64,000 nt of DNA from a virus (IMGVR_UViG_3300031673_000001); one strand, 5' to 3'. Positions 26,577-52,364 are shown, counted from the stretch's first letter. Numbers and translations: made by a program. Notes: a model not told the origin generated them from the letters alone.

Positions 26577-28091
26577 TTAAAATTTCATATCACCAAAACC
26601 TGAAAATGACGAGATAGCATTACACGAATCTTTATTAGAAGAAAATGATGATGATTTTTCAGGGTTTGAACTTAAACTTGCTGACACAAACAAAAAATGT
26701 TCAAAATTTGCTATATATTCAATTCCTAAATTACTACGACCCGATCTATTTTTTCCCACTTTTCCATGTATTTTTTTATCATCAGTCATATCTCTTGCTA
26801 GTAATATAATACAATCTGCATGTTCTACTTTCTTAATTGATTCAGACATTTGATCAAGATTCAACTCGCCAGAATCTTTTATTCTATATGCTGCTCTACC
26901 CAATTGAGATCCTGTTACAACAGGGATATTATATTCAACTCCTATTGTTTTCAAAGATAATGCTATATGACCCAACTCAATTCTGTATAGATCATATTTA
27001 TTATCTGTTTTTAACAAATCTAAATAATCAACATATAAACCACTAATAGATTCTTTTCCATAAATATTTATTACATCATCAAGCACACCCATTAAATCAA
27101 TTGTACTGATGGATAATGCTGGAAAATATTTCATTACAATTGTTGAGTTATTTTGTAATAAAATATTATTAATTCTAGCTTTAATATCAACACCATGTGA
27201 AATGTCATAGAGCATATCTCGTAAACTTTTATTAAACAACCCCTGATAGATTCTCATAAGGGATTCTTCAATTGTATTTTCCATAGTTACATAAACGTAA
27301 ACTCTAGTAATCTCTCCAGCTGGTGGTGGTACAAAGTCAGGAAATTCCATATAATTTATCGGTTTGATTATTGATTTAAAAATCGTATTAGTTAACATTG
27401 TTGATTTACCTGAACCTGAACCCCCACCATAAATATAAAGTCTTGAAGGTTCATAACCTCCATTCATTACAAAACCATCAATTATGTCAAACCCTGTTGA
27501 TACTGTACTATGTTTTTCATATTTTTTCTTGATCATTTCAATAACATGACTAAAATCATCTTTTCCTATATCTAAAGAAGCTGCTGCCTCAATTGTAATT
27601 TGTCTATTTGACTCCATCATATTTGAAAACAGACCTTTTATTGTTAACTCATATTTACTAACCAGATCATCAATAGCTTCAAATGATCCCGTTTTTATTG
27701 TATTTAGAATTTCATCTAGATCATCATAATTTTCAAATAATGATTTTATTTTTTTACGAATACGAACCTGCTTTAAATAATCTTGAAAAACATCATCCTT
27801 CATATCTTCTGTAATAACACGATATAAAAAATCTGAATATTGTTTAAACTTTCCACTCACAAGACTATCATAAACTGAATCAATTTGTCTTCCCTCCAAT
27901 AGCATATTAGAAGCTTTTTTTAGACAACTTAATTTACCTTTAACTTCTATTGGTATCTCGAATGAATGTTTGGTTTCATAAAAATCAATAATCTCTAAAA
28001 TATCTCTATATAAACCAGGCGATCTTTTAATCTTTGACTGTTTATTTAATAGTAAGGATAAACAGCTATTTACAAAAGATTCTGTTAGCAC
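26577..28091 (-). CDS. replicative DnaB-like helicase, T4 gp41-like
   Basis: Walker A GGSGSGKST, VTME, Walker B YVDYLD, SQLGR, SESI.K...AD, KNRSG. Confidence 0.9.
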   Translation of the reverse strand: MLTESFVNSCLSLLLNKQSKIKRSPGLYRDILEIIDFYETKHSFEIPIEVKGKLSCLKKASNMLLEGRQIDSVYDSLVSGKFKQYSDFLYRVITEDMKDDVFQDYLKQVRIRKKIKSLFENYDDLDEILNTIKTGSFEAIDDLVSKYELTIKGLFSNMMESNRQITIEAAASLDIGKDDFSHVIEMIKKKYEKHSTVSTGFDIIDGFVMNGGYEPSRLYIYGGGSGSGKSTMLTNTIFKSIIKPINYMEFPDFVPPPAGEITRVYVYVTMENTIEESLMRIYQGLFNKSLRDMLYDISHGVDIKARINNILLQNNSTIVMKYFPALSISTIDLMGVLDDVINIYGKESISGLYVDYLDLLKTDNKYDLYRIELGHIALSLKTIGVEYNIPVVTGSQLGRAAYRIKDSGELNLDQMSESIKKVEHADCIILLARDMTDDKKIHGKVGKNRSGRSNLGIEYIANFEHFLFVSASLSSNPEKSSSFSSNKDSCNAISSFSGFGDMKF

Positions 28092-28104: not shown

Positions 28105-29514
28105 TTAAAATTTGAATGTCAATTCAGGTTTTTCTAATTCCATAAACTCATCCTTTGATAAACACTTGTTGACAATATACTCACAATATTCTTCATCAAG
28201 ATCCCTCAACATATCAAGAGATTTAGATATACTGTGTGACTTAATCTTTTGTTTTTTTGTTAACTTTCCTTGATTTAGAATCCTTGTAGTCATAAGACAC
28301 ATCTCATTAAACGCTTCTACTTCGCCAGATTCATAAACAGGATATGATTCATTAGCAAACTGTCTCATTCCTTCCTGTAAGTGCGCATAAATACCCAAGG
28401 TATAAAGAATTGAATAAACTTTTACATCTTCATGAAATGTCTTTGTTGTACTATCATAAACTCCATCAGTTGAAATCTCTTTAAATCCGTATTTTCTCGC
28501 ACATTCATTTAAGACCTTTTCAAACATCTCTTCAACTCTAAAACCTGTATATGATCCATTATTTAAAATGGTATCAAATCTCTTATCTAAATTATCAGAT
28601 TTAATACTCATTTTTCTAATGTGATTATGCTTATCTGCAACATGAACAAATCTTGCGTGCATAACCTGCTTATAAATTCCAGATGAATCATATGTTATAT
28701 TTAAATCAATGTTATGAACCTTTTTTGTAGTTATTCTAAATAACTCATAAAATAATATATCTCTAAAATTTGCTCCACCCAATATATGAAAATTTAAATA
28801 ATTTCTTCCATATTTTATACACTCATTGAGTAACGGTATAAGAGGTAATACATAAATGATACAAGGAATTGACATATCACCAGACATATTAGCAACGATA
28901 CCACCAGTGCCATGATAATTAAAACTCGGAAAGAACTCATGATCTCTCATCAATTTAGTATATATTTTCCATAATCTAGGAGTTCTAAAATGATGAATAT
29001 AAATAATTTTTTCTCTTACATGATCTGGCAGATCTCTAGCAATTTCATATGATTTTAAATTAATATCATAAACATCTTTAAAGTCTTTGAATATTTCACA
29101 ACCAGGTCCAGGAGGGATATCAAGTATAAATGCTTTATCATAAACCTTATAACTATCCTCTAACCATTTATAGTACATTTCAAATAATAAGTCTGATTCT
29201 ATACGTGTTAGTTTTCCAATTGAAATTTGAAAACCTCCACTATCTGCTATTAAATTACAACCATCGAAAATTCTCATTTCTCTACATTTTTTAAATAGAT
29301 CATATTCTTTTTGATTATATTTATCATACTTTTTCTTTCCTGGAAAATCTTGACCATATGAATGTAAAAATCCTGCACCAATATTTGCAAGAAAATGGGA
29401 GATTTGTTCTCTCGTAAAATTATTTTCAAATCTCCCTCTTTTCCCAAGAAAAAAATTGTCAACAATTGTTGCTAATGTTTCAAATCCAGCTAAAATATAA
29501 CCACTTTTTACCAT
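28105..29514 (-). CDS. TGT-superfamily guanine transglycosylase, DpdA-like
   Basis: IADSGGFQ, FILD.P, GG, FHILG, TYDSS motifs of the TGT TIM barrel. Confidence 0.75.
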   Translation of the reverse strand: MVKSGYILAGFETLATIVDNFFLGKRGRFENNFTREQISHFLANIGAGFLHSYGQDFPGKKKYDKYNQKEYDLFKKCREMRIFDGCNLIADSGGFQISIGKLTRIESDLLFEMYYKWLEDSYKVYDKAFILDIPPGPGCEIFKDFKDVYDINLKSYEIARDLPDHVREKIIYIHHFRTPRLWKIYTKLMRDHEFFPSFNYHGTGGIVANMSGDMSIPCIIYVLPLIPLLNECIKYGRNYLNFHILGGANFRDILFYELFRITTKKVHNIDLNITYDSSGIYKQVMHARFVHVADKHNHIRKMSIKSDNLDKRFDTILNNGSYTGFRVEEMFEKVLNECARKYGFKEISTDGVYDSTTKTFHEDVKVYSILYTLGIYAHLQEGMRQFANESYPVYESGEVEAFNEMCLMTTRILNQGKLTKKQKIKSHSISKSLDMLRDLDEEYCEYIVNKCLSKDEFMELEKPELTFKF

Positions 29515-29572
29515 ATCAACATTCTCCTATCCTCATCATTTATTCTTTGTTCTTAATTCACTTGTAGAAGAC

Positions 29573-30100
29573 TCACTTTAAAATTTCTTCAATGATATAT
29601 GGCGGACCAGTTGACATATCATAAGTACCTGATGCTTCTAAAGCAGTTAATATTCTTTTTTTAGAATCCTTCCATGCTTCTGTTGTATATAAGGATCCAA
29701 ACGCATATGAACTTCCTGAACCAATACATGTATAATCTTTAATCTCACTCATTTGAAAATCTACTAAAATTTCAAATAGTTTTCCATTTGAGGTCCCTAT
29801 TAAAAAATTTGACTCCATTAAATAAATTCCAGTTTCGGAATTTCTACCTAAGCATCCATTCTTCTCAAACTGTTCAATCATCTTATCAGGAAAGTCAAAA
29901 ATATTTTTGGGGGGTTTAAAGTATTCTGGTTTAAGTACCTGCCCAGATCTAATACTACCAATGTAACCAATCAAATAAGGTCCGTTAATAAATATCTTTT
30001 TACATTTTATTCGTCTCTTTTCACCATCCGAATTAGTAGCATAACTATCTGCTCCAATCAAGACTTTTCCACTATTCACAATACCAATAACAGTTGACAT
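29573..30100 (-). CDS. HslV/proteasome-beta-like Ntn peptidase
   Basis: N-terminal (S)TVIGI...IGADS, IGSGSSYA.G.L, ALEAS..YD..TGPP. Confidence 0.75.
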   Translation of the reverse strand: MSTVIGIVNSGKVLIGADSYATNSDGEKRRIKCKKIFINGPYLIGYIGSIRSGQVLKPEYFKPPKNIFDFPDKMIEQFEKNGCLGRNSETGIYLMESNFLIGTSNGKLFEILVDFQMSEIKDYTCIGSGSSYAFGSLYTTEAWKDSKKRILTALEASGTYDMSTGPPYIIEEILK

Positions 30101-30904
30101 TTACTCTCCCTTCAATTTTACATCATCTCGCATTCTTAAACACTTTGCAAGATCAAATGAATAATCATAAATATGAAGACCCTTACTTGTAGCAATTATC
30201 TCACCATCTTCAACTCCAATTTCTCCCGCCACATACTCCTTCAATAATTGAATTCCACCAAGATTGGCAGGAAAACCACCCCACAAGTCCCAACTTCTAA
30301 AGTAAGGATAAAAATGTAACTTTCCATCTTGAATCCTTGTGTCAATCTGTCTCAAGCAAGGGGGATCTTGAAGTAACATATCAGTTGGATGCGCCACTTG
30401 AAAAACCATCTGATTATTTCTATGTCCATACTTTTTATAGGTTTGAATAAGCAACTCAATCTGGTTTAAATAAAATATATTGTCCTCATACATAATAATT
30501 TTCTTATCTCTCATTTCTTCCATATCTTGAATTAAAATATCTTTCCATTGTGGTGAACTATATGCATATATAGGATAATCAATTGGATATTTAGTCAACC
30601 TCTGTCCATATGTATATGATTCGCCCATTTTTAATTCACCAGTCATTAAATACAAAAGATAATCATCTAAATAATCATCTGCAACTGGATTTGGTAAATT
30701 GTGATGGGATTCTATTTGAGGTGTTAACGGTCTATCACCAGGTCTTTTAATATAAACTGTAATCCAGTCAAACTCTAGTCTTTTTTGACCTTCATAAGAA
30801 CCACGATCAATTTTAAATACTGTACCTTCTTCAAGTATTTTAAATAGAGTTTGAAACCATGCGTCGCTCAAATCTCTTGCCTTAATGTACTGCATGTTTA
30901 ACAT
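30101..30904 (-). CDS. thyA: thymidylate synthase (ThyA fold)
   Basis: YTYGQRL, PPCL, FRSWD..GG.PAN, HIYD. Confidence 0.8.
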   Translation of the reverse strand: MLNMQYIKARDLSDAWFQTLFKILEEGTVFKIDRGSYEGQKRLEFDWITVYIKRPGDRPLTPQIESHHNLPNPVADDYLDDYLLYLMTGELKMGESYTYGQRLTKYPIDYPIYAYSSPQWKDILIQDMEEMRDKKIIMYEDNIFYLNQIELLIQTYKKYGHRNNQMVFQVAHPTDMLLQDPPCLRQIDTRIQDGKLHFYPYFRSWDLWGGFPANLGGIQLLKEYVAGEIGVEDGEIIATSKGLHIYDYSFDLAKCLRMRDDVKLKGE

Positions 30905-30923
30905 TTTAACCTTCCCTTCAAAA

Positions 30924-31274
30924 TTAGTGAATTATTCCAGAAGGACTTTTTATTTGTATTGTTCCTTCATTACTAATTGCACCAATTTCAAGATGTACTA
31001 AAGATTTTTTTGTCTCCTCATGTTCTAGAATTCCATAAATTTCTTCATATTTTAGTATTCTTAAAAGAAGTTTTCCTATTAAAGATGCTTGGCCACCACG
31101 ATTGTGGAAAACAATAACATCACCTACATTTAAATTCTCTACATCCTCACCAAAAGATAAAACTTTTCCATATCCTTGAGGATCGCTTGAACTATCTGGT
31201 AAAATAATTCCACCTTCTGTTTTAGTTCTTTTCAATTCTTCAACAACTATTTTATCACCAACAGCTTTAATCAT
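30924..31274 (-). CDS. groES: GroES co-chaperonin
   Basis: AVGDKIVV, KTEGGIILPD, GKVLS.G, VGD.IVF, EIYGIL. Confidence 0.85.
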   Translation of the reverse strand: MIKAVGDKIVVEELKRTKTEGGIILPDSSSDPQGYGKVLSFGEDVENLNVGDVIVFHNRGGQASLIGKLLLRILKYEEIYGILEHEETKKSLVHLEIGAISNEGTIQIKSPSGIIH

Positions 31275-31593
31275 CAGAATATCTCCCTTTCATTTTTTTT
31301 CTATTACTTTTTAATCTATCAATACGACCTTGTTTATGAAACTGTTCCGCTTTTTCTTGTTCTTTTAACCTCAACCGAATTGATTGTGCCTTTTTTCTAC
31401 GCTTCTTATTACTAGGTTTTTCAAACTGCATTCTTTGTTTTAACTCTCTAGATATTCCACTTCTAGTATACTTTTTTCTAAATCTTTTTATAAAATCATC
31501 AAAAGATTCATCTTCATGTCTAACAACACAAATACCTGAATGTTCATCTGGATAAAAGTGCCTGCTTCTATTAAATGATTGAATTTTAATCAC
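31267..31593 (-). CDS. rpsU: ribosomal protein bS21
   Basis: ESFDDFIKRFRKK...GI.RELKQR..FEKPS.KKRRK. Confidence 0.85.
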   Translation of the reverse strand: MIKIQSFNRSRHFYPDEHSGICVVRHEDESFDDFIKRFRKKYTRSGISRELKQRMQFEKPSNKKRRKKAQSIRLRLKEQEKAEQFHKQGRIDRLKSNRKKMKGRYSDD

Positions 31594-31602
31594 CGCCTTT
31601 CA

Positions 31603-32271
31603 TTAAACAAAACCAAATATAATATGACTCCTTGATGAAAAACTAAACTTAAATTTTTCACATAAATCAAATGTCTTTTCAGAATTCTTAATTAAATCTA
31701 CTCTATTTGTTCCTTCTGGCATCAACCAAATTTTTTGATCCCATATAAGTTGTTCTTCTTTACTTAAAATTTCCAAAAATTTATAAATAAGATCACTTCC
31801 ATCATAAACCACTTTAACGTAAACTGTATTATATGCTTTAATTTCTTCAAGAGTTTTTAATGATTTATCAATGTCTTCAGAACAGAAGATTTTAGGCGAG
31901 AACATAAATTTTATTTTCTTTGAATAGTCAACTTCAGATAATAATTCTTTTAGATGATATCCATTTGATTCAACATTTGCTATGGGGTATTCTAATTCGT
32001 TTAAGAGAGAAACGGTTTCATTAAAATGTCTTTCTACTGTTGGTTCCCCTCCTGTTACTAAAATTCCAGCATTTCTTTCAAATATTGTATTTTGAATATC
32101 TTTTAATTTATGTGGAGCTTCAGCAGAAATTCTCATTTTGACAGATGTATCACACCAGGGACATTTAAGATTACACGTTTTAAATCTAAGTATAATCATT
32201 GTTTTCCCTGAATCTGGTCCTTCACCTTGCCAACTTACAAAATTTTCAATTAATCTAACTTCACCTTCCAT
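31603..32271 (-). CDS. queE: QueE-like radical SAM 7-carboxy-7-deazaguanine synthase
   Basis: E.F.SWQGEG, LRF..CNLKCPWCDT, VTGGEP, VESNG, LMPEG; start re-assigned to 32271. Confidence 0.85.
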   Translation of the reverse strand: MEGEVRLIENFVSWQGEGPDSGKTMIILRFKTCNLKCPWCDTSVKMRISAEAPHKLKDIQNTIFERNAGILVTGGEPTVERHFNETVSLLNELEYPIANVESNGYHLKELLSEVDYSKKIKFMFSPKIFCSEDIDKSLKTLEEIKAYNTVYVKVVYDGSDLIYKFLEILSKEEQLIWDQKIWLMPEGTNRVDLIKNSEKTFDLCEKFKFSFSSRSHIIFGFV

Positions 32272-32305
32272 ATTATATTCTCCTTCATGTTTATTTGTTC
32301 TAAAT

Positions 32306-35300
32306 TTAAAATAAAATAACCTCATTTTTCTTTTCTTCTATTGCTTTGAATAATGGTTTTAAGAATAATGCATGTCTATCTTCAAATGTAAATTTTAATG
32401 TTGACTGAACATCTGGAATAAAATAATGTGGTAATTTTTCTTCTTCATCTGGAATTGCTATTACTTCCAATTTTTTACCTCCAGATATAAATTTATGATA
32501 CTTTTCTAAAACATCTTTTGGCGCTTTATCAATATCTATTCCTTTCACCCAGTATAAATAACCCTTTGCACCTGTGCGATGAATATCATACATTATACTA
32601 TTCCATGCCTGCATACTTCTTACTCCCTGTGGAACCATTTTATAATCCTCTAATTTTTTACCCCATGATACAGGTCTACCAATTTTCTTATCCCCATTTC
32701 TTATCATTTCTACAAAATCTCTTTTGCTTCTATTAATAAAATCCATAATTTTAGGAGGTGACATCTTTTCAGATTTTGACTTTAATAAAAGTTCAGATAA
32801 CTCTATTAAAAATTCTTTTGATTTACTTGGATAATCAGATCTTTTAATTTCAACTCCCATAAAATTAGTTTTATCAACTTCCTTCCCTTCATTATTTACA
32901 ACATGAATTGCATATCGTTTTTTAGCAAGAAATAATCCTCTTGAAATAATTAACTCATTTTTTAATTTCAATCTGTTATACTCTAAATTAACATTATATC
33001 TCTTTACAACTTCAGCAATTTTATCATTATTTAAAAAATCTTCTATTTTATCACACCATTTACGAATATTATCAATCGTTTTCTCTTCCACAAAATTTTC
33101 AAACTTACAAAAAATTGAATCTGTATCTCCAGTTATAATGAAATCGTTTGATCTGTCAGGTAATGTATATAACTCTGGTTCTGCCTTTGGATCTGCAAAC
33201 ATTTCTTCTTTTGTTAAAGTCTTTGGTTTTATATACTCTATTCCTGTTGCCATACTTCTCATTAAAGCATCGCCTTCAATAATTGAAGTTTTCAATGCTT
33301 CTTGACCAGTCAATGTGATTGCTGATGCTAGTGATAGATCATAAAATCTAAATGACTTGTTTGCAACAACCCCATATAAAGTATTTGCTAAAACCTTATA
33401 AACAAGTTGTCTTGTATAAAAGAATTTTTCTGCATTCTTATCTTTCTTTTCAATAGCATCAAACATCTGACTTTTATATGTATCACGAGATGACATTAAC
33501 ATCTCGACTACTTCTCCAAACACAGAAAACTTTTTCTTATGCGAGTTAAAAAAGCATCCATTAACTGTATAAACTAACTCTTTTTCTTTTATCAATTTCA
33601 ATAACCCATTTTTATCAATTTCTACAAGTTCTTTCTTATATAGAGGATCAACAACTACACTTATTTTATCTGGCAACTTTTCTGGATTATATGCAATATC
33701 ATATCCAAGATGCGGATTGGTTGTTTTCATTACAAAACTATTAATACCAATATTATAAGTAATCATTAAACTTGGATACAGAGACTTAAAATCAAAATCT
33801 GTTATCCAACTATAAAGTCCAGGTATTGGTTCATAGACATAAGCTCCAGGATAACTTTCTTTTGAAATGTGTGGATCAGAATTTTTAGAAGCTATTCCCT
33901 TACTTCTTAAATATGAAACCATCAATGAATCAATCTGCCCCATAGATGTGACAGAATCAAAACTTGTATTACAAATAATTCTCAATTCATTTAACAAATT
34001 AATATGACCTAATTTATCATCTAATTCTTTTAACAATTCTGTATCTCGAATATTATACTTAATCGTCATATTTAACTTCTGCCAATACATCTCATTGAAG
34101 GACAACGGCAATTGAATTTTTGTACGCCCCAGCTCACTCTCTGCAATAAATCCAAGTTTATAATTTTCCATTTTTGTAAATGTAAATGTTCTATATAAAA
34201 AATCTTGATCAATAGCAACACATCCAGGAATTAAACAAATCCATCTTGCACCATCAACAAAAAATTCCCCAAATTTTGTCATTAAAGTATCAGGTATTTT
34301 TAAATTTCTAATTCTATTAAAAATGTATTGCATATCAAAACTAATTAAATTCCATCCAGAAATAAAATCAGGATCAGTATCTCTAAAATCTTTCATAAAT
34401 GTACGCAACATCTTATTTTCATCTTTTATATCAAAAATCTTATAAACAACACCATCAACTTTTTCTATTGGTTCAGTTTTATTATCAAGAACATAAGTGG
34501 TTGTAACACCATTATAAATTGATGTAAACATATTTATTGAAAACTCTGCTTCTATTGGACTTGGAAAGATCTTTTCTTTTCCAGTATCAATTTCAATATC
34601 AAAAAACATAACATTAGATTCTACCTTTGGAGCATCCCCTTTGTTAAAATGATAATAATCCATAGCATGTTTAGTTGTTATTCTAATATCCCCTTCATAC
34701 GTTATATCTGGATCTAATTGATTTCTATCTCTATATGATAAAGAAATTTGTTTAAGATCTTCATAAGGAATAATCTTTCTTGCTTCAACTCCATCTTTTA
34801 TCTGATAACAAATATATTCATCACTTTCTGTATGATAAATTTTTTTATTATTTCTATCTCTAAAAATATAAAGAACCTCTTGCTTTTTACTAATAAATTG
34901 AACATCAATGAGTCTGTAATCGTCTGTATAAAACTTCTCTGGAATCTTATATCTGTATATGCCTTCTCCAATTTTCTTCTCATTAACTTTAAATGATACG
35001 TCTGAAACAACGCCATTTAACAAATCTGAAATTTTTAACATATCTTCTTCAAATTTTGGTTCCCATACCTTTAAATTTCTATTAGCAAAAGAAGGATGGA
35101 TTGTTAAAAAAACTTTAAATCCTTCCCATTCAAACGTTTTACCATGAAGATTAGTTATACCCGATTTAGCAATGCCAAATGCACTCATAGGAGTTGCACC
35201 CATCAAAACAATCAACTTTGGTTTACATTGTCTAATAATTTCCATACAATTCATTTTACATCTTTCAATAACATCTGGTTCTGGATTGCCAGTTGTTTTA

Positions 35301-35581
35301 TCTGGATTTATTGTCTGACATAAAACTGTATTTGTTAGAAGATATTTTACTTTATTTAATTCATATTTTGCAAAATATTTTCTAAACATTCTGCCTGACT
35401 TACCAACCAACGGTGCTGGTTCTGGTTTTTTGGCAACCTCATTCTTACCAGGATTCTCTGCTACAAATACAATTTCAACCTGTGTAAGATCAACTTTTGA
35501 ATTTGTTTCTAGAATACAAGAAGGAGCATCTAATAATTGACAAGTTGAGCAATCAGCAAAAGAATCTTTAATTGAAATCAT
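32306..35581 (-). CDS. family B DNA polymerase with N-terminal family-4 uracil-DNA glycosylase domain
   Basis: UDG: CxxC, AENPG, LVGKSG, TN.V.C, C...KPKLIV.MG, HPS. PolB: FDIE, GWN...FD, YN..D, DFKSLYPS, K..AN..YG, GDTDS. Confidence 0.92.
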   Translation of the reverse strand: MISIKDSFADCSTCQLLDAPSCILETNSKVDLTQVEIVFVAENPGKNEVAKKPEPAPLVGKSGRMFRKYFAKYELNKVKYLLTNTVLCQTINPDKTTGNPEPDVIERCKMNCMEIIRQCKPKLIVLMGATPMSAFGIAKSGITNLHGKTFEWEGFKVFLTIHPSFANRNLKVWEPKFEEDMLKISDLLNGVVSDVSFKVNEKKIGEGIYRYKIPEKFYTDDYRLIDVQFISKKQEVLYIFRDRNNKKIYHTESDEYICYQIKDGVEARKIIPYEDLKQISLSYRDRNQLDPDITYEGDIRITTKHAMDYYHFNKGDAPKVESNVMFFDIEIDTGKEKIFPSPIEAEFSINMFTSIYNGVTTTYVLDNKTEPIEKVDGVVYKIFDIKDENKMLRTFMKDFRDTDPDFISGWNLISFDMQYIFNRIRNLKIPDTLMTKFGEFFVDGARWICLIPGCVAIDQDFLYRTFTFTKMENYKLGFIAESELGRTKIQLPLSFNEMYWQKLNMTIKYNIRDTELLKELDDKLGHINLLNELRIICNTSFDSVTSMGQIDSLMVSYLRSKGIASKNSDPHISKESYPGAYVYEPIPGLYSWITDFDFKSLYPSLMITYNIGINSFVMKTTNPHLGYDIAYNPEKLPDKISVVVDPLYKKELVEIDKNGLLKLIKEKELVYTVNGCFFNSHKKKFSVFGEVVEMLMSSRDTYKSQMFDAIEKKDKNAEKFFYTRQLVYKVLANTLYGVVANKSFRFYDLSLASAITLTGQEALKTSIIEGDALMRSMATGIEYIKPKTLTKEEMFADPKAEPELYTLPDRSNDFIITGDTDSIFCKFENFVEEKTIDNIRKWCDKIEDFLNNDKIAEVVKRYNVNLEYNRLKLKNELIISRGLFLAKKRYAIHVVNNEGKEVDKTNFMGVEIKRSDYPSKSKEFLIELSELLLKSKSEKMSPPKIMDFINRSKRDFVEMIRNGDKKIGRPVSWGKKLEDYKMVPQGVRSMQAWNSIMYDIHRTGAKGYLYWVKGIDIDKAPKDVLEKYHKFISGGKKLEVIAIPDEEEKLPHYFIPDVQSTLKFTFEDRHALFLKPLFKAIEEKKNEVILF

Positions 35582-35799
35582 TTAAATCCTCCATTTCATC
35601 ATTTTATTTTTGTTACGCAAACAAAAATTATTTTCCCATTTAAACAAAAGTATCTATATATATTAATAAGTGAATATTGAATTTGGTTTATTTTTTTTTA
35701 AATTAACTTTCAACAAAAGGAGGTCAATGTGGATAAAAAACTAAATAACTGACTATGGCGGAAACAAAAATTAACAAGAGTATCGAAATGATATAGGAG

Positions 35800-36702
35800 A
35801 TGTGGATGACCAAAATAGTACAGCAAGTTAGCTCCGGGAACAATTCTGAAATTGACCCAAATTCTATAAAATATTATAAGCAGTTAGATCGAATTAAAAA
35901 ATTGGCTCTTGATACCAATGTACCAGAAGATTTTCATATTAAATGGTTGCAAGCTAAAACAATAATTGGAGTTCAAGATAACCTCATTGAAGATACTGTA
36001 CATATTTTAAAATCCTTTCTAGTAAAATATGTTGATGAGGAGGAACAACAAAAATTAATTGATTTAAAAAATGCAAGAAATTTATTAATTGAAACAAACC
36101 TTCTAACCCAAATTCATACCACAGGACAATTTGAAAAATGGAAAAAACCATTTTCAAATACTTGTCAAAAATGTAAAGGTGCAGGTGAACTTCTACTTTT
36201 CAATCGTATTACAAAAGATGTAACTTGTAATAAATGTAAACATGGAATAGTCTGGTTACCTTGCCCAAAATGTGATGGAACTGGTAGAGTTATCGTTAGA
36301 TATAAAAAAGGTGGAGGAACAGATTCAATATGTGATAAATGTTTAGAATCAACTAAAGAGTATATAAAAACTGAAGAATATGGGACTCTTCTCAAACTAA
36401 ATGAAAAAAATCCAGAATCTCATCCCCTTAATATTAATAAAATAAAAGTATCTTGTAGAACATGCAAGGGAACAACAATTGCAAAAATTTTAGTTTTAGA
36501 TTATTCTTTAAAATCTACTACTCCTTGTGATTCATGTGATTCATTAGGTTATATAATTAAAACCCAAACCCCCAAGAAAAAACAAAAAGAACCAATTCCA
36601 GATAATCCAGTCTTAAATCAAGAGCTAGCACTAAAAATTAACCTCCTATTAGACAGTCAAAAAGATCTCAATTCCACAGACGAAACCAACCCTACAACAT
36701 AA
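35800..36702 (+). CDS. protein with DnaJ-type CxxCxGxG zinc-finger repeats
   Basis: CQKCKGAG, CNKC, CPKCDGTG, CDKC, CRTCKG, CDSC..LG; no J-domain HPD motif seen. Confidence 0.65.
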   Translation: MWMTKIVQQVSSGNNSEIDPNSIKYYKQLDRIKKLALDTNVPEDFHIKWLQAKTIIGVQDNLIEDTVHILKSFLVKYVDEEEQQKLIDLKNARNLLIETNLLTQIHTTGQFEKWKKPFSNTCQKCKGAGELLLFNRITKDVTCNKCKHGIVWLPCPKCDGTGRVIVRYKKGGGTDSICDKCLESTKEYIKTEEYGTLLKLNEKNPESHPLNINKIKVSCRTCKGTTIAKILVLDYSLKSTTPCDSCDSLGYIIKTQTPKKKQKEPIPDNPVLNQELALKINLLLDSQKDLNSTDETNPTT

Positions 36703-36711
36703 CATTTCCAA

Positions 36712-36760
36712 ATAGCTGAAAACTTTTCTACACTTCCATGATAGAGAAGTTTTCAGCTAT
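36712..36760. terminator. bidirectional hairpin at convergent genes
   Basis: ATAGCTGAAAACTT / AAGTTTTCAGCTAT inverted repeat. Confidence 0.65.
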
Positions 36761-37264
36761 AAAATCTTTCAATGATTTTTTAACTACTATTTTTTTTGTA
36801 GATTTTATTTTTTGCTTTTTAATATTCTCAAGTCCTAAAGAATTATAAAAAGTATCTCTTTTATCAGACTTATTTATTATATCACACAGAAAGTCCACTT
36901 CAAAAGATTTTAACTGTGGATATCTTTTTTCAATAACATTATAAAGTTTATCATTATACTTTCTTTTATAATAAGTTGTATCATATTTACCAACTCTAAA
37001 CTCCAATACACATTTCTTAATAAAATATAAAAGCTCTTCCCTTGGAATTGAATAAATATTTATATTATTAAAGTATTGATCTAAATATTTATTTAATGAA
37101 AGATTTCTTAAAAATACACTGATAACATATCTATTTGTTATTGGACTATTATACTTTAATATATTTGGAACAATAACTTTTCCATCTTCAGTCGTTCTTG
37201 GTGCTGGAATTTTACTATTTATATTTCCATCAAATAACCAATTGAAATACGTTTTAAATGGCAT
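36728..37264 (-). CDS. hypothetical protein
   Basis: 178 aa ORF with RBS. Confidence 0.65.
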   Translation of the reverse strand: MPFKTYFNWLFDGNINSKIPAPRTTEDGKVIVPNILKYNSPITNRYVISVFLRNLSLNKYLDQYFNNINIYSIPREELLYFIKKCVLEFRVGKYDTTYYKRKYNDKLYNVIEKRYPQLKSFEVDFLCDIINKSDKRDTFYNSLGLENIKKQKIKSTKKIVVKKSLKDFIAENFSIMEV

Positions 37265-37275
37265 TATTTCTCCTT

Positions 37276-37797
37276 TTAGAAAAGAATAATATGTTCCGCT
37301 CTATTCTTGTAAGTTCTCTCTTTAGCTTCAAAGTAATTATGTTCTGTATTAAGACATAATAACAAATTCCATTCATTATCATCCCAATAATTTCCATTCC
37401 AATGATGTATATGCCAAATAAACTCTTTTCCATACAATAACTTGCCACTTGGACCATAAACTGCCTTAACATTTCCGAATAGATCTTTATTCGGTATAAC
37501 AGGAAATTTATAATTTAATTCTGGACGAGCTTGAAAATAATACAGTGTATGCTTTCCCATTGATGGTAAATTGATCAATCCATATTTACTAAACACCTTT
37601 GAACTAGGATAAACCCTTATCCTTCTTTCATTTATTTTACTATCATAAATACTGCTAAAACAAAAAGGACAATCTATACAAACAGTATTTTTAAGATTTC
37701 TATCAACAACATTACACATCTGACAATCACCTTTTAATTCTGAATCAATGCCTGAATAATCAACTGGTATATTATTAGAAAAATCAATATTTGCCAT
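37276..37797 (-). CDS. HNH-like endonuclease
   Basis: IHHWNGNYWDD..WNL.....EH motif plus CxxC pairs. Confidence 0.65.
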   Translation of the reverse strand: MANIDFSNNIPVDYSGIDSELKGDCQMCNVVDRNLKNTVCIDCPFCFSSIYDSKINERRIRVYPSSKVFSKYGLINLPSMGKHTLYYFQARPELNYKFPVIPNKDLFGNVKAVYGPSGKLLYGKEFIWHIHHWNGNYWDDNEWNLLLCLNTEHNYFEAKERTYKNRAEHIILF

Positions 37798-37812
37798 TTG
37801 AACCTCCTTTCT

Positions 37813-38751
37813 CTACATCATTCTATGTATTATATTCTCGTAAAACATCTTCATTTCCCCTTCACATATAAGAGATGGAACTCTTAATCTACCTCTATCA
37901 ACTGCTTCAATTTTATCAATAAGGTCTTCTTTATCATTATAAATGTATTGTCTTGGAAGAATCTCTGGATAAGCACATCTATTAGGAGCTAGTGGAATAC
38001 AATTGTTCATAACAGCATCCACGATTTGATAACCAAATGTATCCTCATGCGCTGATATTAAAAGAATCTTACTCATACTCAAAAATTTATAATAATTTTC
38101 CCAAGTATTTTTTTCTTTATCTCGAGTTCTTCTAACAATGTCAATACCCTTCTCCAATTCTGCATCAACTTTCTGTCTTGTTGGTCTTGATGCTGAAGCA
38201 ATACCAATCGTTTTTTCAGAAACTAAATTTGATATATCTTTGAAAGGAGGAAAAGGTAATCTAACAACCACTGTATTTGCCCATTTTAACTTTTTCTGAT
38301 GATAATTTGAACCAATGAAAATTTCATCAAACATTCTTGAATGCGCTGTCTCAACTAAAAATTTACTATCACTCACACTTTCAAAATAATCAAATTTATT
38401 AATACTTGTTGCATGACAATAAGCAAACGATTTCTTTGGTTTCTTATGATATAGAACATTACAGAAGAAACCTGGAAAACTTATATCTGCGACAAATAAA
38501 ATATCATCAACTTTTAAATCCATTGCCATATATTCTTTTATCTGTTCAGATTCAAATCTAATAGCTGCCTCGATTGGAGAAAACATTCCTTTTGTCTCAA
38601 CACCTTTAATGTTATATTTAGCTGCTTTTTCTCCCAGAATATAAACTTCAAATCCTGCGTTTCTAAATTCTAGAGGAAACTTTGAGTACCACCATTCCTG
38701 ATATCTCATAGGAGTTGGATATTGAGGCACAAAAATAATTCTCTTATTCAT
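37813..38751 (-). CDS. GT-B fold glycosyltransferase
   Basis: ILLISA.EDTFGY..VDAV...CIPLAPN...YPEI. Confidence 0.8.
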   Translation of the reverse strand: MNKRIIFVPQYPTPMRYQEWWYSKFPLEFRNAGFEVYILGEKAAKYNIKGVETKGMFSPIEAAIRFESEQIKEYMAMDLKVDDILFVADISFPGFFCNVLYHKKPKKSFAYCHATSINKFDYFESVSDSKFLVETAHSRMFDEIFIGSNYHQKKLKWANTVVVRLPFPPFKDISNLVSEKTIGIASASRPTRQKVDAELEKGIDIVRRTRDKEKNTWENYYKFLSMSKILLISAHEDTFGYQIVDAVMNNCIPLAPNRCAYPEILPRQYIYNDKEDLIDKIEAVDRGRLRVPSLICEGEMKMFYENIIHRMM

Positions 38752-38960
38752 TATTCTTTCTCCTTTCTGCTCCTTTTTAAAAGTTTAGGAATATCTAATG
38801 GTCTTCTATATTTACACGCCCAGCAATAATTTTCTCCAATATTATTATACATTTCACAAACAACATCATATATACACCAATCTTTCATACCTAATTTCAA
38901 ATTATAATATTTCCTATATTTTATATCTTCATCTTTTATTCCTGATGGTCCTTTACTCAT
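38751..38960 (-). CDS. hypothetical protein
   Basis: 69 aa, coupled between the deacetylase and glycosyltransferase genes. Confidence 0.5.
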   Translation of the reverse strand: MSKGPSGIKDEDIKYRKYYNLKLGMKDWCIYDVVCEMYNNIGENYCWACKYRRPLDIPKLLKRSRKEKE

Positions 38961-38969
38961 ATTGCCTCC

Positions 38970-39440
38970 TTAAAACACCCATTTGCAATAACCTTCAAAG
39001 AGAACATACTTCTTCTCATATTTCCACATATCACGTTGACTTGCATAAACTTCATTTAATATATATTCCTTTCTAGTTGGTTCCAATGACTCGTGAATAT
39101 ATGGAGCATTCATTATAGTGCTATAAAAAGTTACATCAATTCCTGATCTAGCATATAATTCTCCAGTCATACCCAATTCTCTATGTTTTGGATGAGTCTC
39201 ATAGATTGGATCAGGAAAATAAAACTTATGATTTTTATTAATCATTGCCATAGGAATACTACTTTGAAACATTTGAACCTTAATTCCATCTATATATTCT
39301 TTTAACCTCATTGCTTCCTTTCTACGATTTGCATTTACATCTGGAGAATAAATAATTATAATAGTTTCCTCTCTTTTCAATACCTCATAACATCCAATAA
39401 TTTCATCATCAGGATGTGGTGCCACAATTACATGATTCAT
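38970..39440 (-). CDS. PIG-L/LmbE family N-deacetylase (minimal)
   Basis: VAPHPDDEIIG and HPKH motifs. Confidence 0.75.
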   Translation of the reverse strand: MNHVIVAPHPDDEIIGCYEVLKREETIIIIYSPDVNANRRKEAMRLKEYIDGIKVQMFQSSIPMAMINKNHKFYFPDPIYETHPKHRELGMTGELYARSGIDVTFYSTIMNAPYIHESLEPTRKEYILNEVYASQRDMWKYEKKYVLFEGYCKWVF

Positions 39441-40736: not shown

Positions 40737-40823
40737 GCCACCGTCGCTTAGTGGACGATAGCGCTGGATTTGTAATCCAGAGATCCTTGATCCTCGTAGG
40801 TTCGAATCCTACCGGTGGCTCCA
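40737..40823 (+). tRNA. tRNA-Thr(UGU) with 15-nt variable arm
   Basis: CTGGA-TTTGTAA-TCCAG; acceptor GCCACCG/CGGTGGC; CCA. Confidence 0.8.
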
Positions 40824-40853
40824 TTGTTAAAAGGTTACAGAGGTAACTATAAT

Positions 40854-41312
40854 ATGATATCTAATTATCTTAAATTTTTACAATCTGAAAAATACAATTA
40901 CAATGAAGAAGACTTATCCAGTCATCATGGAGTTTCTGCAATTATTTATGATAAGAATAAAAGAATTCTTATGCAGGAACATGTTAAGTTAAAATTTTGG
41001 ACAATACCAGTAGGCAAAGTCAAATCAGATGAAACTGTAATTCAAGGTTTGAAAAAAGAGATTTTGGAAGAGTGTGGAATCAAATTAATAAAATTTAAAG
41101 AAGTAGTAAAATTTAATAAAAAATATACCAGGCATGGAAAGAATGTAACAGTATTTGGTCATATTTTTGAAGTAGAAAAATATTCAGGTACTCCACGTAA
41201 TCTTGAACCCCAAAAACATAAGCAGCAAATTTTTATGAGTATTGAAGAGATTAAAAAGAAAGCAAAATTATCAGATTCGACTATTCAAGCATTAAAATAT
41301 TTAGAAAAATAA
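40854..41312 (+). CDS. Nudix hydrolase
   Basis: Nudix box GKVKSDETVIQGLKKEILEECGI; start re-assigned to ATG 40854, after the tRNA. Confidence 0.85.
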   Translation: MISNYLKFLQSEKYNYNEEDLSSHHGVSAIIYDKNKRILMQEHVKLKFWTIPVGKVKSDETVIQGLKKEILEECGIKLIKFKEVVKFNKKYTRHGKNVTVFGHIFEVEKYSGTPRNLEPQKHKQQIFMSIEEIKKKAKLSDSTIQALKYLEK

Positions 41313-52286: not shown

Positions 52287-52364
52287 GGTCCAGTAGCTCC
52301 AGTGGTTAGAGCAGGAAACTCTAAATTTCCGTTTGCGAGGGTTCGAATCCCTCCTGGACCACCA
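52287..52364 (+). tRNA. amber suppressor tRNA (anticodon CUA)
   Basis: GGAAA-CTCTAAA-TTTCC; canonical D and T arms; CCA. Confidence 0.88.

What the first reader, a model, noticed from the sequence alone, without database searches (positions are those of the whole stretch)
28105..39440. Candidate hypermodified 7-deazaguanine DNA system: DpdA-like transglycosylase and QueE, with a glycosyltransferase and deacetylase nearby
Seen: a 469-aa TGT-fold protein (DSGGFQ, LD, HILG, YDSS) directly upstream of the helicase; a QueE radical SAM gene next to the polymerase; and a coupled PIG-L deacetylase / small ORF / GT-B glycosyltransferase unit at 37813-39440. Established: phage DpdA proteins swap G for 7-deazaguanine derivatives made through FolE/QueD/QueE/QueC, protecting DNA from restriction. 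Inference: the GT and deacetylase could add and de-N-acetylate an amino sugar on the deazaguanine (or another base), which would be an unusual modification. FolE, QueD and QueC are not in this window. The TGT-like enzyme could alternatively act on tRNA.
Basis: partly seen in the sequence, partly recalled or inferred. Interest (0 to 1): 0.72.

Follow-up and report, generated by a model that had tools for sequence, protein, structure and literature searches.

The report
Phage deazaguanine genes with amino-sugar module
A large uncultured T4-like phage carries genes for replacing guanine in its DNA with a 7-deazaguanine, and a sugar-adding enzyme plus a sugar deacetylase that sit beside such genes in several unrelated phage lineages, which suggests an undescribed amino-sugar-decorated purine in phage DNA.

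Summary

- **Transglycosylase.** The 469-aa protein has a tRNA-guanine-transglycosylase fold (Z about 18). It is a remote homologue of the DNA-acting DpdA2 enzymes of Vibrio phages (hhalign 97%), keeps the three catalytic aspartates, and forms its own metagenome-only subfamily.
- **QueE.** The gene is QueE-like.
- **Rest of the pathway.** The window lacks it. Related 200-255 kb phage contigs carry FolE2, QueD and QueC, but no QueF and no second TGT.
- **PIG-L deacetylase and GT4 glycosyltransferase.** In the cultured phages BUDD, X1 and BCSR5, homologues of both lie between FolE and dpdA2-queE. Of 47 IMG/VR loci with this PIG-L subfamily, 47 have the GT close by on the same locus. 43 have deazaguanine genes within 10 kb. 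Of 16 loci with only weak, partial PIG-L matches, none has either.

The pair is therefore an accessory of 7-deazaguanine systems. It probably adds GlcNAc and deacetylates it. The attachment point, and whether the product ends up in DNA, were not tested. I found no paper describing this. Other readers and agents of this scan noted the same idea on other genomes and on this one.

The parts
28105..29514 (-). DpdA-like guanine transglycosylase (469 aa). It is a new subfamily remotely related to DpdA2, and the predicted enzyme that swaps G in DNA for a 7-deazaguanine base.
   Evidence: - AF2 model, pLDDT 83.8.
- Foldseek PDB top hit is the DNA preQ0 insertase DpdA, 7ui4. BFVD hits include a 464-aa Vibrio phage nt-1 protein, the same length as that phage's DpdA2, at 9.8e-9.
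- VIA Z 17-19 to TGTs over about 310 residues.
- hhalign of family alignment A4 against a DpdA2 alignment: Prob 97.1, E 5.5e-11.
- D91, H243, G246 and D276 are invariant and D132 is nearly invariant in 52 diverse members.
31603..32325 (-). QueE-like radical SAM enzyme (7-carboxy-7-deazaguanine synthase), overlapping the polymerase gene's end by 20 nt.
   Evidence: - phrog_2076 'QueE-like' 9.7e-33.
- Best NCBIfam hits are QueE models, but below their cut-offs.
- tblastn finds annotated QueE genes of phages known to carry 7-deazaguanine DNA: immuto_2-6A, phiST and CP220.
- CxxxCxxC motif.
37813..38751 (-). GT-B fold, GT4-type glycosyltransferase (312 aa). It is the predicted sugar (probably GlcNAc) transferase of the module.
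   Evidence: - AF2 model, pLDDT 88.
- Foldseek hits are GT4 enzymes, including BshA and MshA.
- BLASTP to BCSR5 QRE00063 gives 9e-20 over nearly the full length. The BUDD and BCSR5 homologues hit Pfam Glycos_transf_1.
- Atlas places it in viral GT4 clusters.
38751..38960 (-). Small Cys-containing ORF (69 aa) between the deacetylase and the GT. Its role is unknown.
   Evidence: - Conserved only in close relatives.
- No similarity to the 143-155 aa ORF that occupies the same position in BUDD and BCSR5.
38970..39440 (-). Short PIG-L/LmbE-family deacetylase (156 aa). It is the predicted de-N-acetylase of the transferred amino sugar.
   Evidence: - Atlas structure TM 0.78-0.82 to PIG-L clusters.
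- P-H-x-D-D-E and H83-x-x-H86 motifs are invariant or nearly so in alignment A6, which includes the BUDD and BCSR5 homologues.
- BLASTP to the BUDD homologue gives 2e-11.

Best explanation
The region holds part of a phage 7-deazaguanine DNA-modification system with an added amino-sugar module.

**Inferred from family homology.**
- QueE makes 7-carboxy-7-deazaguanine from the product of FolE2 and QueD.
- QueC, encoded elsewhere in the genome as in relatives, takes it to the amide or nitrile (ADG or preQ0). No QueF is present, so preQ1 is not expected.
- The 469-aa TGT-fold enzyme is a new subfamily related to DpdA2. It exchanges guanine in phage DNA for the deazaguanine base by the double-displacement mechanism of TGT/DpdA, with D276 as nucleophile, D91 as general acid/base and D132 recognising the base.

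**Shown by comparative genomics.** The PIG-L deacetylase and GT4 glycosyltransferase are a dedicated accessory of such systems.

**Inferred by analogy** with MshA/MshB, BshA/BshB and the huimycin enzyme HuiG. The GT transfers GlcNAc from UDP-GlcNAc onto the deazaguanine or a precursor, and PIG-L removes the acetyl group to leave a free amine. That amine may stay as a charged group, or be joined to the 7-carboxyl group by the QueC-type or PP-loop enzyme next to it in other lineages.

The likely purpose is protection of phage DNA from restriction and other nucleic-acid-targeting defences.
For: **DpdA-like protein**
- TGT fold.
- Profile-profile homology to DpdA2, with DSGG(F/L)Q, HxLG and (I/T)YDSS aligned and D132 aligned to the FDEIP aspartate.
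- Invariant residues across the family.
- It is the only TGT-like gene in five related 200-255 kb contigs.

**Pathway in those relatives**
- QueC 4/5, QueD 5/5, FolE2 4/5, QueF 0/5, type I FolE 0/5.
- QueE is syntenic.

**QueE**.

**Linkage of GT and PIG-L to deazaguanine genes**
- Among 50,697 phage records, full-length homologues of both occur only in BUDD, X1 and BCSR5.
- In BUDD and BCSR5 the order is (PP-loop protein)-PIG-L-small ORF-GT-DpdA2-x-QueE, with FolE in the same cluster: directly upstream of the PP-loop gene in BUDD, downstream of QueE in BCSR5.
- Of 47 IMG/VR loci with this PIG-L subfamily, 47 have the GT on the locus (within about 2 kb in nearly all). 43 have at least one of QueE, QueC, QueD, FolE or DpdA within 10 kb.
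- Of 16 loci with only weak, partial PIG-L matches, none has either.
- In the BUDD-like lineage, the ORFs just downstream of the GT (adjacent in most loci) are DpdA-like: hhalign 97% to this family and 95.6% to DpdA2.

**Chemistry precedents**
- A GT4-type enzyme, HuiG, puts GlcNAc on a 7-deazapurine (PMC7439116).
- BshA and MshA are among the best structural matches of the GT.
- DpdA2 of phages nt-1 and VH7D inserts preQ0 or preQ1 into DNA in E. coli (PMC10516641).
Against: - There is no chemical evidence for any modified base in this or any related phage.
- In this clade the pair is not adjacent to dpdA or queE. It lies 5.5 kb from queE and 8.3 kb from the dpdA-like gene, within a replication block that is syntenic throughout the clade. 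Linkage within this clade alone therefore proves little.
- Sugar donor and acceptor cannot be read from the GT4 fold. Glycogen synthase and ALG2 score like BshA.
- None of the eight deazaguanine bases known in DNA carries a hydroxyl group for ordinary O-glycosylation.
- The TGT-like family lacks the CxCxxC...H zinc site conserved in TGT and bacterial DpdA (no invariant Cys).
- It gives no significant HMM or BLAST hit to any characterised DpdA.
- The window's own genome could not be searched for FolE2, QueD and QueC.
Confidence: 0.6

Rival explanations
1. The deazaguanine genes modify DNA with an ordinary base such as preQ0 or ADG. The GT and PIG-L pair does something else, for example glycosylating a pyrimidine made through the thymidylate-synthase-like gene, or a protein or host glycan. 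It would sit near the deazaguanine genes only because both are early or replication-module genes.
For: - In this clade the pair is separated from queE and dpdA by the polymerase gene and other genes.
- A divergent thymidylate-synthase homologue (30101-30904) and a polymerase with a fused UDG domain are present, features seen in phages with modified thymidine (abstract of PMC13697223).
- T-even phages use GT-B enzymes on hydroxymethylcytosine (established knowledge).
Against: - Outside this clade the pair sits inside compact deazaguanine clusters, directly beside dpdA2 or queC.
- No thymidylate-synthase-like gene lies within 10 kb in 21 loci of the other three lineages.
- The thymidylate-synthase homologue keeps the Asn of uracil-specific enzymes, and nothing marks it as a hydroxymethylase.
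Confidence: 0.15
2. The TGT-like enzyme and the sugar module act on tRNA rather than DNA. They would build a glycosylated queuosine-like base at position 34 of the phage's own Asp, Asn and His tRNAs, as eukaryotes mannosylate or galactosylate queuosine.
For: - The window encodes 25 tRNAs, including Asp-GTC, Asn-GTT and His-GTG.
- The fold is shared equally with the tRNA enzymes.
Against: - The nearest sequence family is DpdA2, which inserts bases into DNA in experiments.
- No QueA, QueG, QueH or QueF step towards queuosine was seen, and QueF is absent in 5/5 relatives.
- Pfam gives no QTMAN-type match for the GT.
- The gene sits between the replicative helicase and polymerase genes.
Confidence: 0.1
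3. The Que enzymes, GT and PIG-L make a free glycosylated 7-deazapurine small molecule of the huimycin or dapiramicin type. It would be used during infection as an inhibitor or signal and would not be incorporated into nucleic acid.
For: - Huimycin biosynthesis uses FolE, QueD, QueE and QueC plus a GT that adds GlcNAc to the 2-amino group.
- Earlier notes of this scan describe cellular clusters of that kind.
- In lineages A' and B, no DpdA-like gene was recognised within 10 kb of the pair.
Against: - A DpdA-type transglycosylase directly follows the GT in the BUDD-like lineage and is conserved in this clade.
- A 2026 genome-mining study uses absence of dpdA as the criterion for secondary-metabolite pathways.
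- No export or self-resistance genes were seen next to the pair.
Confidence: 0.1

Closest known systems
DpdA2-type 7-deazaguanine DNA modification of Vibrio phages nt-1 and VH7D (Hutinet et al. 2019, PMC6884629; Cui et al. 2023, PMC10516641)
   Same: - Large T4-like phages with a roughly 460-aa TGT-fold enzyme that Pfam's TGT model does not see.
- The same DSGGxQ, HxLG and YDSS motifs, and a phage-encoded preQ0 pathway.
- Profile-profile homology of 97%.
   Different: - No BLAST or HMM-level similarity, so this is a separate subfamily.
- FolE2 is used instead of type I FolE in relatives.
- An accessory PIG-L plus GT4 pair is present, which nt-1, KVP40, pf16, Moby and ACP17 lack.
Deazaguanine clusters of Xanthomonas phages BUDD and X1 and Burkholderia phage BCSR5 (sequenced, chemistry not described)
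   Same: Homologous PIG-L and GT4 proteins in the same order, with a small ORF between them, together with QueE and a DpdA-type enzyme.
   Different: - There the pair lies inside one compact operon with FolE, a PAPS-reductase-like PP-loop protein, a bona fide DpdA2 and QueE.
- Here the genes are spread over a replication block, and the transglycosylase belongs to another subfamily.
Huimycin biosynthesis (HuiG glycosyltransferase, Kutzneria albida; PMC7439116)
   Same: preQ0 pathway genes plus a GT4-type enzyme that attaches GlcNAc to a 7-deazapurine.
   Different: - It is a bacterial secondary metabolite with no transglycosylase and no deacetylase, and the sugar goes on the exocyclic 2-amino group of an O6-methylated free base.
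- Homology of HuiG to this GT was not tested because I had no sequence for it.
MshA/MshB (mycothiol) and BshA/BshB (bacillithiol) pairs
   Same: - A GT4 enzyme adds GlcNAc and a PIG-L family enzyme then removes the acetyl group to free an amine for a later amide bond.
- BshA and MshA are among the best structural matches of the GT.
   Different: - Those are thiol cofactor pathways with small-molecule acceptors.
- The PIG-L here is much shorter (156 aa).
- No Cys ligase is present.
Glucosylation of hydroxymethylcytosine in T-even phages
   Same: A GT-B fold enzyme in a T4-like phage that probably decorates a non-canonical base to evade host defences.
   Different: - The target there is a pyrimidine made by a dCMP hydroxymethylase, and no deacetylase is involved.
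- Here the thymidylate-synthase homologue is uracil-type and is not linked to the pair in other lineages.

Membership tests
TGT/DpdA superfamily | TIM-barrel fold of tRNA-guanine transglycosylases | tested here: met
   VIA Z 17.3-18.8, rmsd about 4 A, over 308-332 aligned residues. All 50 top entries are TGTs. The Foldseek top PDB hit is DpdA 7ui4.
TGT/DpdA superfamily | Three active-site aspartates: general acid/base, base recognition and nucleophile (D95, D130 and D256 in Salmonella DpdA, PMC10164549) | tested here: met
   D91 and D276 are invariant and D132 is nearly invariant in 52 diverse members. All three align with the DSGGLQ, FDEIP and YDSS aspartates of DpdA2. Their positions in the model were not inspected.
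TGT/DpdA superfamily | Structural zinc site (CxCxxC...H) | tested here: not met
   There is no CxCxxC in the protein and no conserved cysteine in the family alignment.
TGT/DpdA superfamily | Match to the curated sequence model (Pfam PF01702) | tested here: not met
   No hit for this protein or for 52 family members. The same model also misses the accepted DpdA2 of nt-1 and the DpdA3 of phiST and immuto, so this weighs little.
DpdA2 subfamily | Sequence-level membership (BLAST or HMM) with nt-1 or KVP40 DpdA2 | tested here: not met
   tblastn against 50,697 phage records finds nothing below E 0.7. The A3 profile finds nothing in nt-1. Only profile-profile comparison links them. I therefore file it as a sister subfamily, not as DpdA2.
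DpdA (any subfamily) | Exchanges guanine in DNA for a 7-deazaguanine base | not testable with these tools
   Needs an enzyme assay or nucleoside mass spectrometry.
DpdA (any subfamily) | Co-occurrence with phage-encoded 7-deazaguanine synthesis genes | tested here: met
   QueE is in the window. In five related contigs: QueC 4/5, QueD 5/5, FolE2 4/5.
QueE (7-carboxy-7-deazaguanine synthase) | Radical SAM cluster motif and a match to QueE models | tested here: inconclusive
   CxxxCxxC is present and phrog_2076 scores 1e-32. The best NCBIfam QueE model scores 61.8 bits against a cut-off of 260. tblastn hits are annotated phage QueE genes at 26-28% identity.
PIG-L/LmbE deacetylases | Fold, and metal-binding motifs HxDD and HxxH | tested here: met
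   Atlas model TM 0.78-0.82 to PIG-L clusters. P8, H9, D11, D12, E13 and H86 are invariant and H83 is nearly invariant. The Pfam score of 18.2 is below the cut-off of 28.2.
GT4 (GT-B, retaining) glycosyltransferases | Two-Rossmann GT-B fold with a GT4-type C-terminal domain | tested here: met
   Model pLDDT 88. The listed Foldseek matches are GT-B glycosyltransferases, most of them GT4, at E 1e-8 to 1e-5. Pfam Glycos_transf_1 is hit by the BUDD and BCSR5 homologues but not by this protein.
QTMAN/GTDC1 queuosine mannosyltransferase | Match to the QTMAN-type N-terminal domain, or a close structural match | tested here: inconclusive
   No Pfam match at E 0.01. GTDC1 is not among the 30 best Swiss-Prot structural matches, which does not exclude it.

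The most novel reading that the evidence does not exclude
Phages of at least four lineages, including the cultured BUDD, X1 and BCSR5, replace guanine in their DNA with a 7-deazaguanine that carries an amino sugar. The sugar would be GlcNAc trimmed to GlcN, possibly amide-linked to the 7-carboxyl group by a QueC-type or PP-loop enzyme, or attached at N2 as in huimycin. This would be the first sugar-bearing purine known in any DNA.
Probability: 0.4. Interest if true: 0.9.

Novelty: new variant of a known kind. Interest (0 to 1): 0.78.

Why it matters
Eight 7-deazaguanine derivatives are known in phage DNA, and none carries a sugar. Sugar decoration of DNA bases is so far known only for pyrimidines.

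A sugar-bearing deazapurine would be a new class of DNA hypermodification. It would have consequences for restriction, CRISPR and glycosylase-based defences, and for sequencing and enzymatic handling of such DNA.

The question is directly testable because three cultured phages (BUDD, X1, BCSR5) carry the same module.

The 469-aa protein family has 297 clusters at 50% identity, all from metagenomes. It would add a further DpdA subfamily, common in large aquatic T4-like phages.

Tried and rejected
- **Pfam, NCBIfam and PDB sequence searches of the 469-aa protein.** They gave nothing useful. Only phrog_887 matched, at 4.6e-5 over 100 residues.
- **Weak Pfam 'Pox_D5' hit (E 0.008).** Dismissed as noise.
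- **hhalign with the shallow alignment A3.** Too weak against single sequences. It worked only after building deeper alignments on both sides.
- **Homology to DpdA3.** Not supported: 2% probability.
- **phrog_887, A3 and PF01702 against nt-1, phiST and immuto.** None found even their accepted DpdA genes, so those negatives mean little.
- **The window's own genome.** It is not held, so the rest of the pathway was examined only in relatives.
- **Type I FolE.** Absent in relatives. FolE2 fills the gap.
- **The small ORFs.** The 69-aa ORF and the downstream 178-aa ORF show no similarity to the small ORFs between PIG-L and GT in BUDD and BCSR5.
- **PAPS-reductase-like protein of BUDD and BCSR5.** Not detectably related to QueC beyond the PP-loop, and it has no homologue in the window.
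- **Second radical SAM enzyme and a 125-aa protein.** They accompany the pair in other lineages and are present in relative G001, but not in this window.
- **Literature searches** for a glycosylated deazaguanine in phage DNA, or for PIG-L in such systems, found nothing.

Full report
**What is there**

The window is part of a large T4-like phage genome of about 31% G+C. It encodes a Gp23-type capsid protein, a T4-type portal and a prohead protease. No whole genome is held for it.

The finding lies in a minus-strand block running 15419-39440. In transcription order the block reads as follows:

| Coordinates | Product |
|---|---|
| 38970-39440 | PIG-L-like protein |
| 38751-38960 | 69-aa ORF |
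| 37813-38751 | 312-aa glycosyltransferase |
| 36728-37797 | two ORFs of unknown function |
| 32306-35581 | family B DNA polymerase with an N-terminal UDG domain |
| 31603-32325 | QueE-like radical SAM protein |
| 31267-31593 | ribosomal protein S21 |
| 30924-31274 | Cpn10 |
| 30101-30904 | thymidylate-synthase homologue |
| 29573-30100 | HslV-like peptidase |
| 28105-29514 | 469-aa protein |
| 26577-28091 | DnaB-type helicase |

A DnaJ-type zinc-finger gene on the plus strand (35800-36702) interrupts the block upstream of the polymerase gene.

**The 469-aa protein**

Ordinary profile searches do not recognise it. Pfam, NCBIfam and PDB sequence searches gave nothing, and phrog_887 'queuine tRNA-ribosyltransferase' matched only at 4.6e-5.

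It belongs to a large family found only in metagenomes: 595 close homologues and 297 clusters at 50% identity. None is in 50,697 cultured-phage records.

An AlphaFold model built on 33 homologues (pLDDT 83.8) is a TIM barrel.
- Its best PDB match by Foldseek is the DNA preQ0 insertase DpdA (7ui4), followed by many TGTs.
- Among viral models it matches a 464-aa Vibrio phage nt-1 protein, the same length as that phage's DpdA2, at 9.8e-9.
- VIA-align gives Z 17-19 over about 310 residues, and all 50 top entries are TGTs.

I built a diverse family alignment (52 sequences). I also built a DpdA2 alignment from nt-1, KVP40, pf16, BUCT-ZZ01, ACP17, BUDD and Moby.
- hhalign links the two alignments with probability 97.1 and E 5.5e-11 over 277 columns.
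- DSGGFQ aligns to DSGGLQ, LDIPP to FDEIP, FHILG to HxLG and ITYDSS to ISYDSS.
- D91 and D276 are invariant and D132 nearly so.
- These correspond to the general acid/base, nucleophile and base-recognition aspartates shown by mutagenesis in Salmonella DpdA (PMC10164549).
- The zinc site of TGT and bacterial DpdA is missing.
- There is no detectable relation to DpdA3.

I therefore call it a new DpdA-type subfamily whose nearest relative is DpdA2, not a member of DpdA2. Pfam's TGT model also misses the accepted DpdA2 and DpdA3 genes, so its silence here carries little weight.

**The rest of the pathway**

The QueE call rests on three results.
- phrog_2076 scores 1e-32.
- The best NCBIfam hits are QueE models, though far below their cut-offs.
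- tblastn finds annotated QueE genes of phages proven to carry deazaguanine DNA, including immuto_2-6A, phiST and CP220.

No other Que gene is in the window.

I found 25 IMG/VR loci encoding relatives of the 469-aa protein, and the replication block is syntenic in them. Five long contigs (203-255 kb, 49-66% identity) were searched whole:

| Gene (family searched) | Contigs with a match |
|---|---|
| QueC | 4/5 |
| QueD | 5/5 |
| Type I FolE | 0/5 |
| FolE2 | 4/5 |
| QueF | 0/5 |
| Canonical TGT | 0/5 |

phrog_887 hits only the homologue of the 469-aa protein in these contigs. The clade therefore encodes a full route to preQ0 or ADG and a single transglycosylase. These contigs are 65-82% complete by CheckV, so single absences mean little.

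**The glycosyltransferase and deacetylase**

- The 156-aa protein has a PIG-L fold: the Atlas model gives TM 0.78-0.82 to PIG-L clusters. It has the P-H-x-D-D-E and HxxH metal motifs.
- The 312-aa protein models as a GT-B enzyme (pLDDT 88). The listed matches are GT-B glycosyltransferases, most of them GT4, and include BshA and MshA.

The decisive evidence is context.

*Cultured phages.*
- tblastn of either protein against all cultured-phage records finds full-length homologues only in Xanthomonas phages BUDD and X1 and Burkholderia phage BCSR5.
- In BUDD the two genes lie in one operon: FolE, a PAPS-reductase-like PP-loop protein (SGGKDS), PIG-L, a small ORF, GT, DpdA2, a small ORF, QueE.
- BCSR5 has the same core order, with FolE downstream of QueE.

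*Uncultured phages.* A scan of IMG/VR with a PIG-L alignment that included these sequences returned 63 loci.
- All 47 loci with a strong hit to this PIG-L subfamily have the GT on the same locus, within about 2 kb in nearly all.
- 43 of the 47 have at least one of QueE, QueC, QueD, FolE or a DpdA-type gene within 10 kb.
- Two of the other four have the PP-loop gene.
- The 16 loci with only weak, partial PIG-L matches have none of these.

*Lineages.* By gene order and identity the 47 loci fall into at least four groups:
- **A:** this clade.
- **A':** a sister group with QueC and FolE flanking the pair.
- **B:** QueD-QueE-FolE-second radical SAM-QueC-125-aa protein-PIG-L-GT-GT2.
- **C:** the BUDD-like group.

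In group C, the ORFs just downstream of the GT (adjacent in most loci) that my DpdA2 model missed are still DpdA-like. hhalign gives 97% to this family and 95.6% to DpdA2.

By contrast, homologues of the thymidylate-synthase-like gene are found near the pair only within this clade, and in 0 of 21 loci elsewhere. That homologue keeps the Asn typical of uracil-specific enzymes, and nothing marks it as a hydroxymethylase.

**How it most likely works**

Inferred from family homology:
- FolE2, QueD, QueE and QueC make CDG, ADG or preQ0.
- The DpdA-type enzyme exchanges guanine in DNA for that base.

Shown by comparative genomics:
- The PIG-L and GT4 pair belongs functionally to such systems.

Inferred by analogy:
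- The GT adds GlcNAc and PIG-L deacetylates it. This is the logic of MshA/MshB and BshA/BshB.
- A GT4-type enzyme, HuiG, is known to put GlcNAc on a 7-deazapurine (PMC7439116).
- A QueC-type or PP-loop ATPase sits immediately beside the deacetylase in three lineages. That suggests the freed amine could be joined to the 7-carboxyl group of CDG, as QueC joins ammonia and as a QueC-like enzyme joins lysine in roseomycin (preprint 10.64898/2026.04.15.718813). This last step is speculation.

It is open whether glycosylation happens on the free base or on DNA.

**Rivals**

- The pair could have an unrelated target.
- The system could act on tRNA. The window has 25 tRNA genes, including Asp, Asn and His with GUN anticodons.
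- It could make a free huimycin-like metabolite.

Each is weakened by the adjacency of the pair to DpdA-type genes and by the DNA activity shown for DpdA2 (PMC10516641). None is excluded.

**Novelty**

Searches of the paper library found no description of a sugar-bearing deazaguanine in DNA, and none of PIG-L or GT genes as part of Dpd clusters.

First readers and follow-up agents of this scan raised the same idea on other genomes and on this one. Those are unchecked notes and I did not use them as evidence. They did give me the huimycin lead, which I checked in the paper.

Noticed in passing
window 32306-35581 (-): The family B DNA polymerase has an N-terminal uracil-DNA-glycosylase domain (residues 34-172, Pfam UDG 8.5e-16). 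UDG fused to A-family polymerases was recently described in phages with modified thymidine (PMC13697223). A B-family fusion may be a parallel case.
   Followed up: no
window 30101-30904 (-): A divergent thymidylate-synthase homologue whose best match is the archaeal-type model TIGR03283 (1e-30, below cut-off). It keeps the catalytic Cys (PPC) and the uracil-specifying Asn (FPAN). Whether it methylates or hydroxymethylates dUMP is open.
   Followed up: partly
window 29573-31593 (-): An HslV-like peptidase, a Cpn10 co-chaperonin and a ribosomal protein S21 gene sit between queE and the dpdA-like gene. They are syntenic in many relatives.
   Followed up: no
window 40142-62125 (+), especially 52287-52364: An array of 25 tRNA genes interspersed with small ORFs. 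One has a CTA anticodon (called tRNA-Pyl by ARAGORN), so it is a possible amber suppressor. I did not test for stop-codon reassignment.
   Followed up: no
window 562-25394 and 41489-63952: Pfam hits among the other ORFs include RtcB RNA ligase, peptidyl-tRNA hydrolase PTH2, NADAR, RNase H, a PP2C phosphatase with a protein-kinase-like protein, a PAS plus response-regulator protein, a pyrimidine-dimer glycosylase, and NUDIX (40815-41312). The individual ORFs were not assigned.
   Followed up: no
L061 (Xanthomonas phage BUDD) 9916-10614 (-): The annotated start of the BUDD PIG-L homologue (USV40853.1) cuts off the conserved N-terminal SPHVDDE metal motif. The open frame continues upstream and overlaps the annotated PAPS-reductase-like gene.
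   Followed up: partly
L093 3386-4435 and 4972-5349; relative G001 185133-186197 and 85260-85631: A second radical SAM enzyme of about 350 aa and a 125-aa protein with no Pfam match accompany QueC, PIG-L and GT in two other lineages. Both are also present in a relative of this phage, far from the pair, but not in this window.
   Followed up: partly
relative G001 (IMGVR_UViG_3300040801_004532) about 93.5-119 kb (-): A long run of tightly packed, overlapping genes of 180-420 aa that looks like a sugar or glycan biosynthesis island.
   Followed up: no
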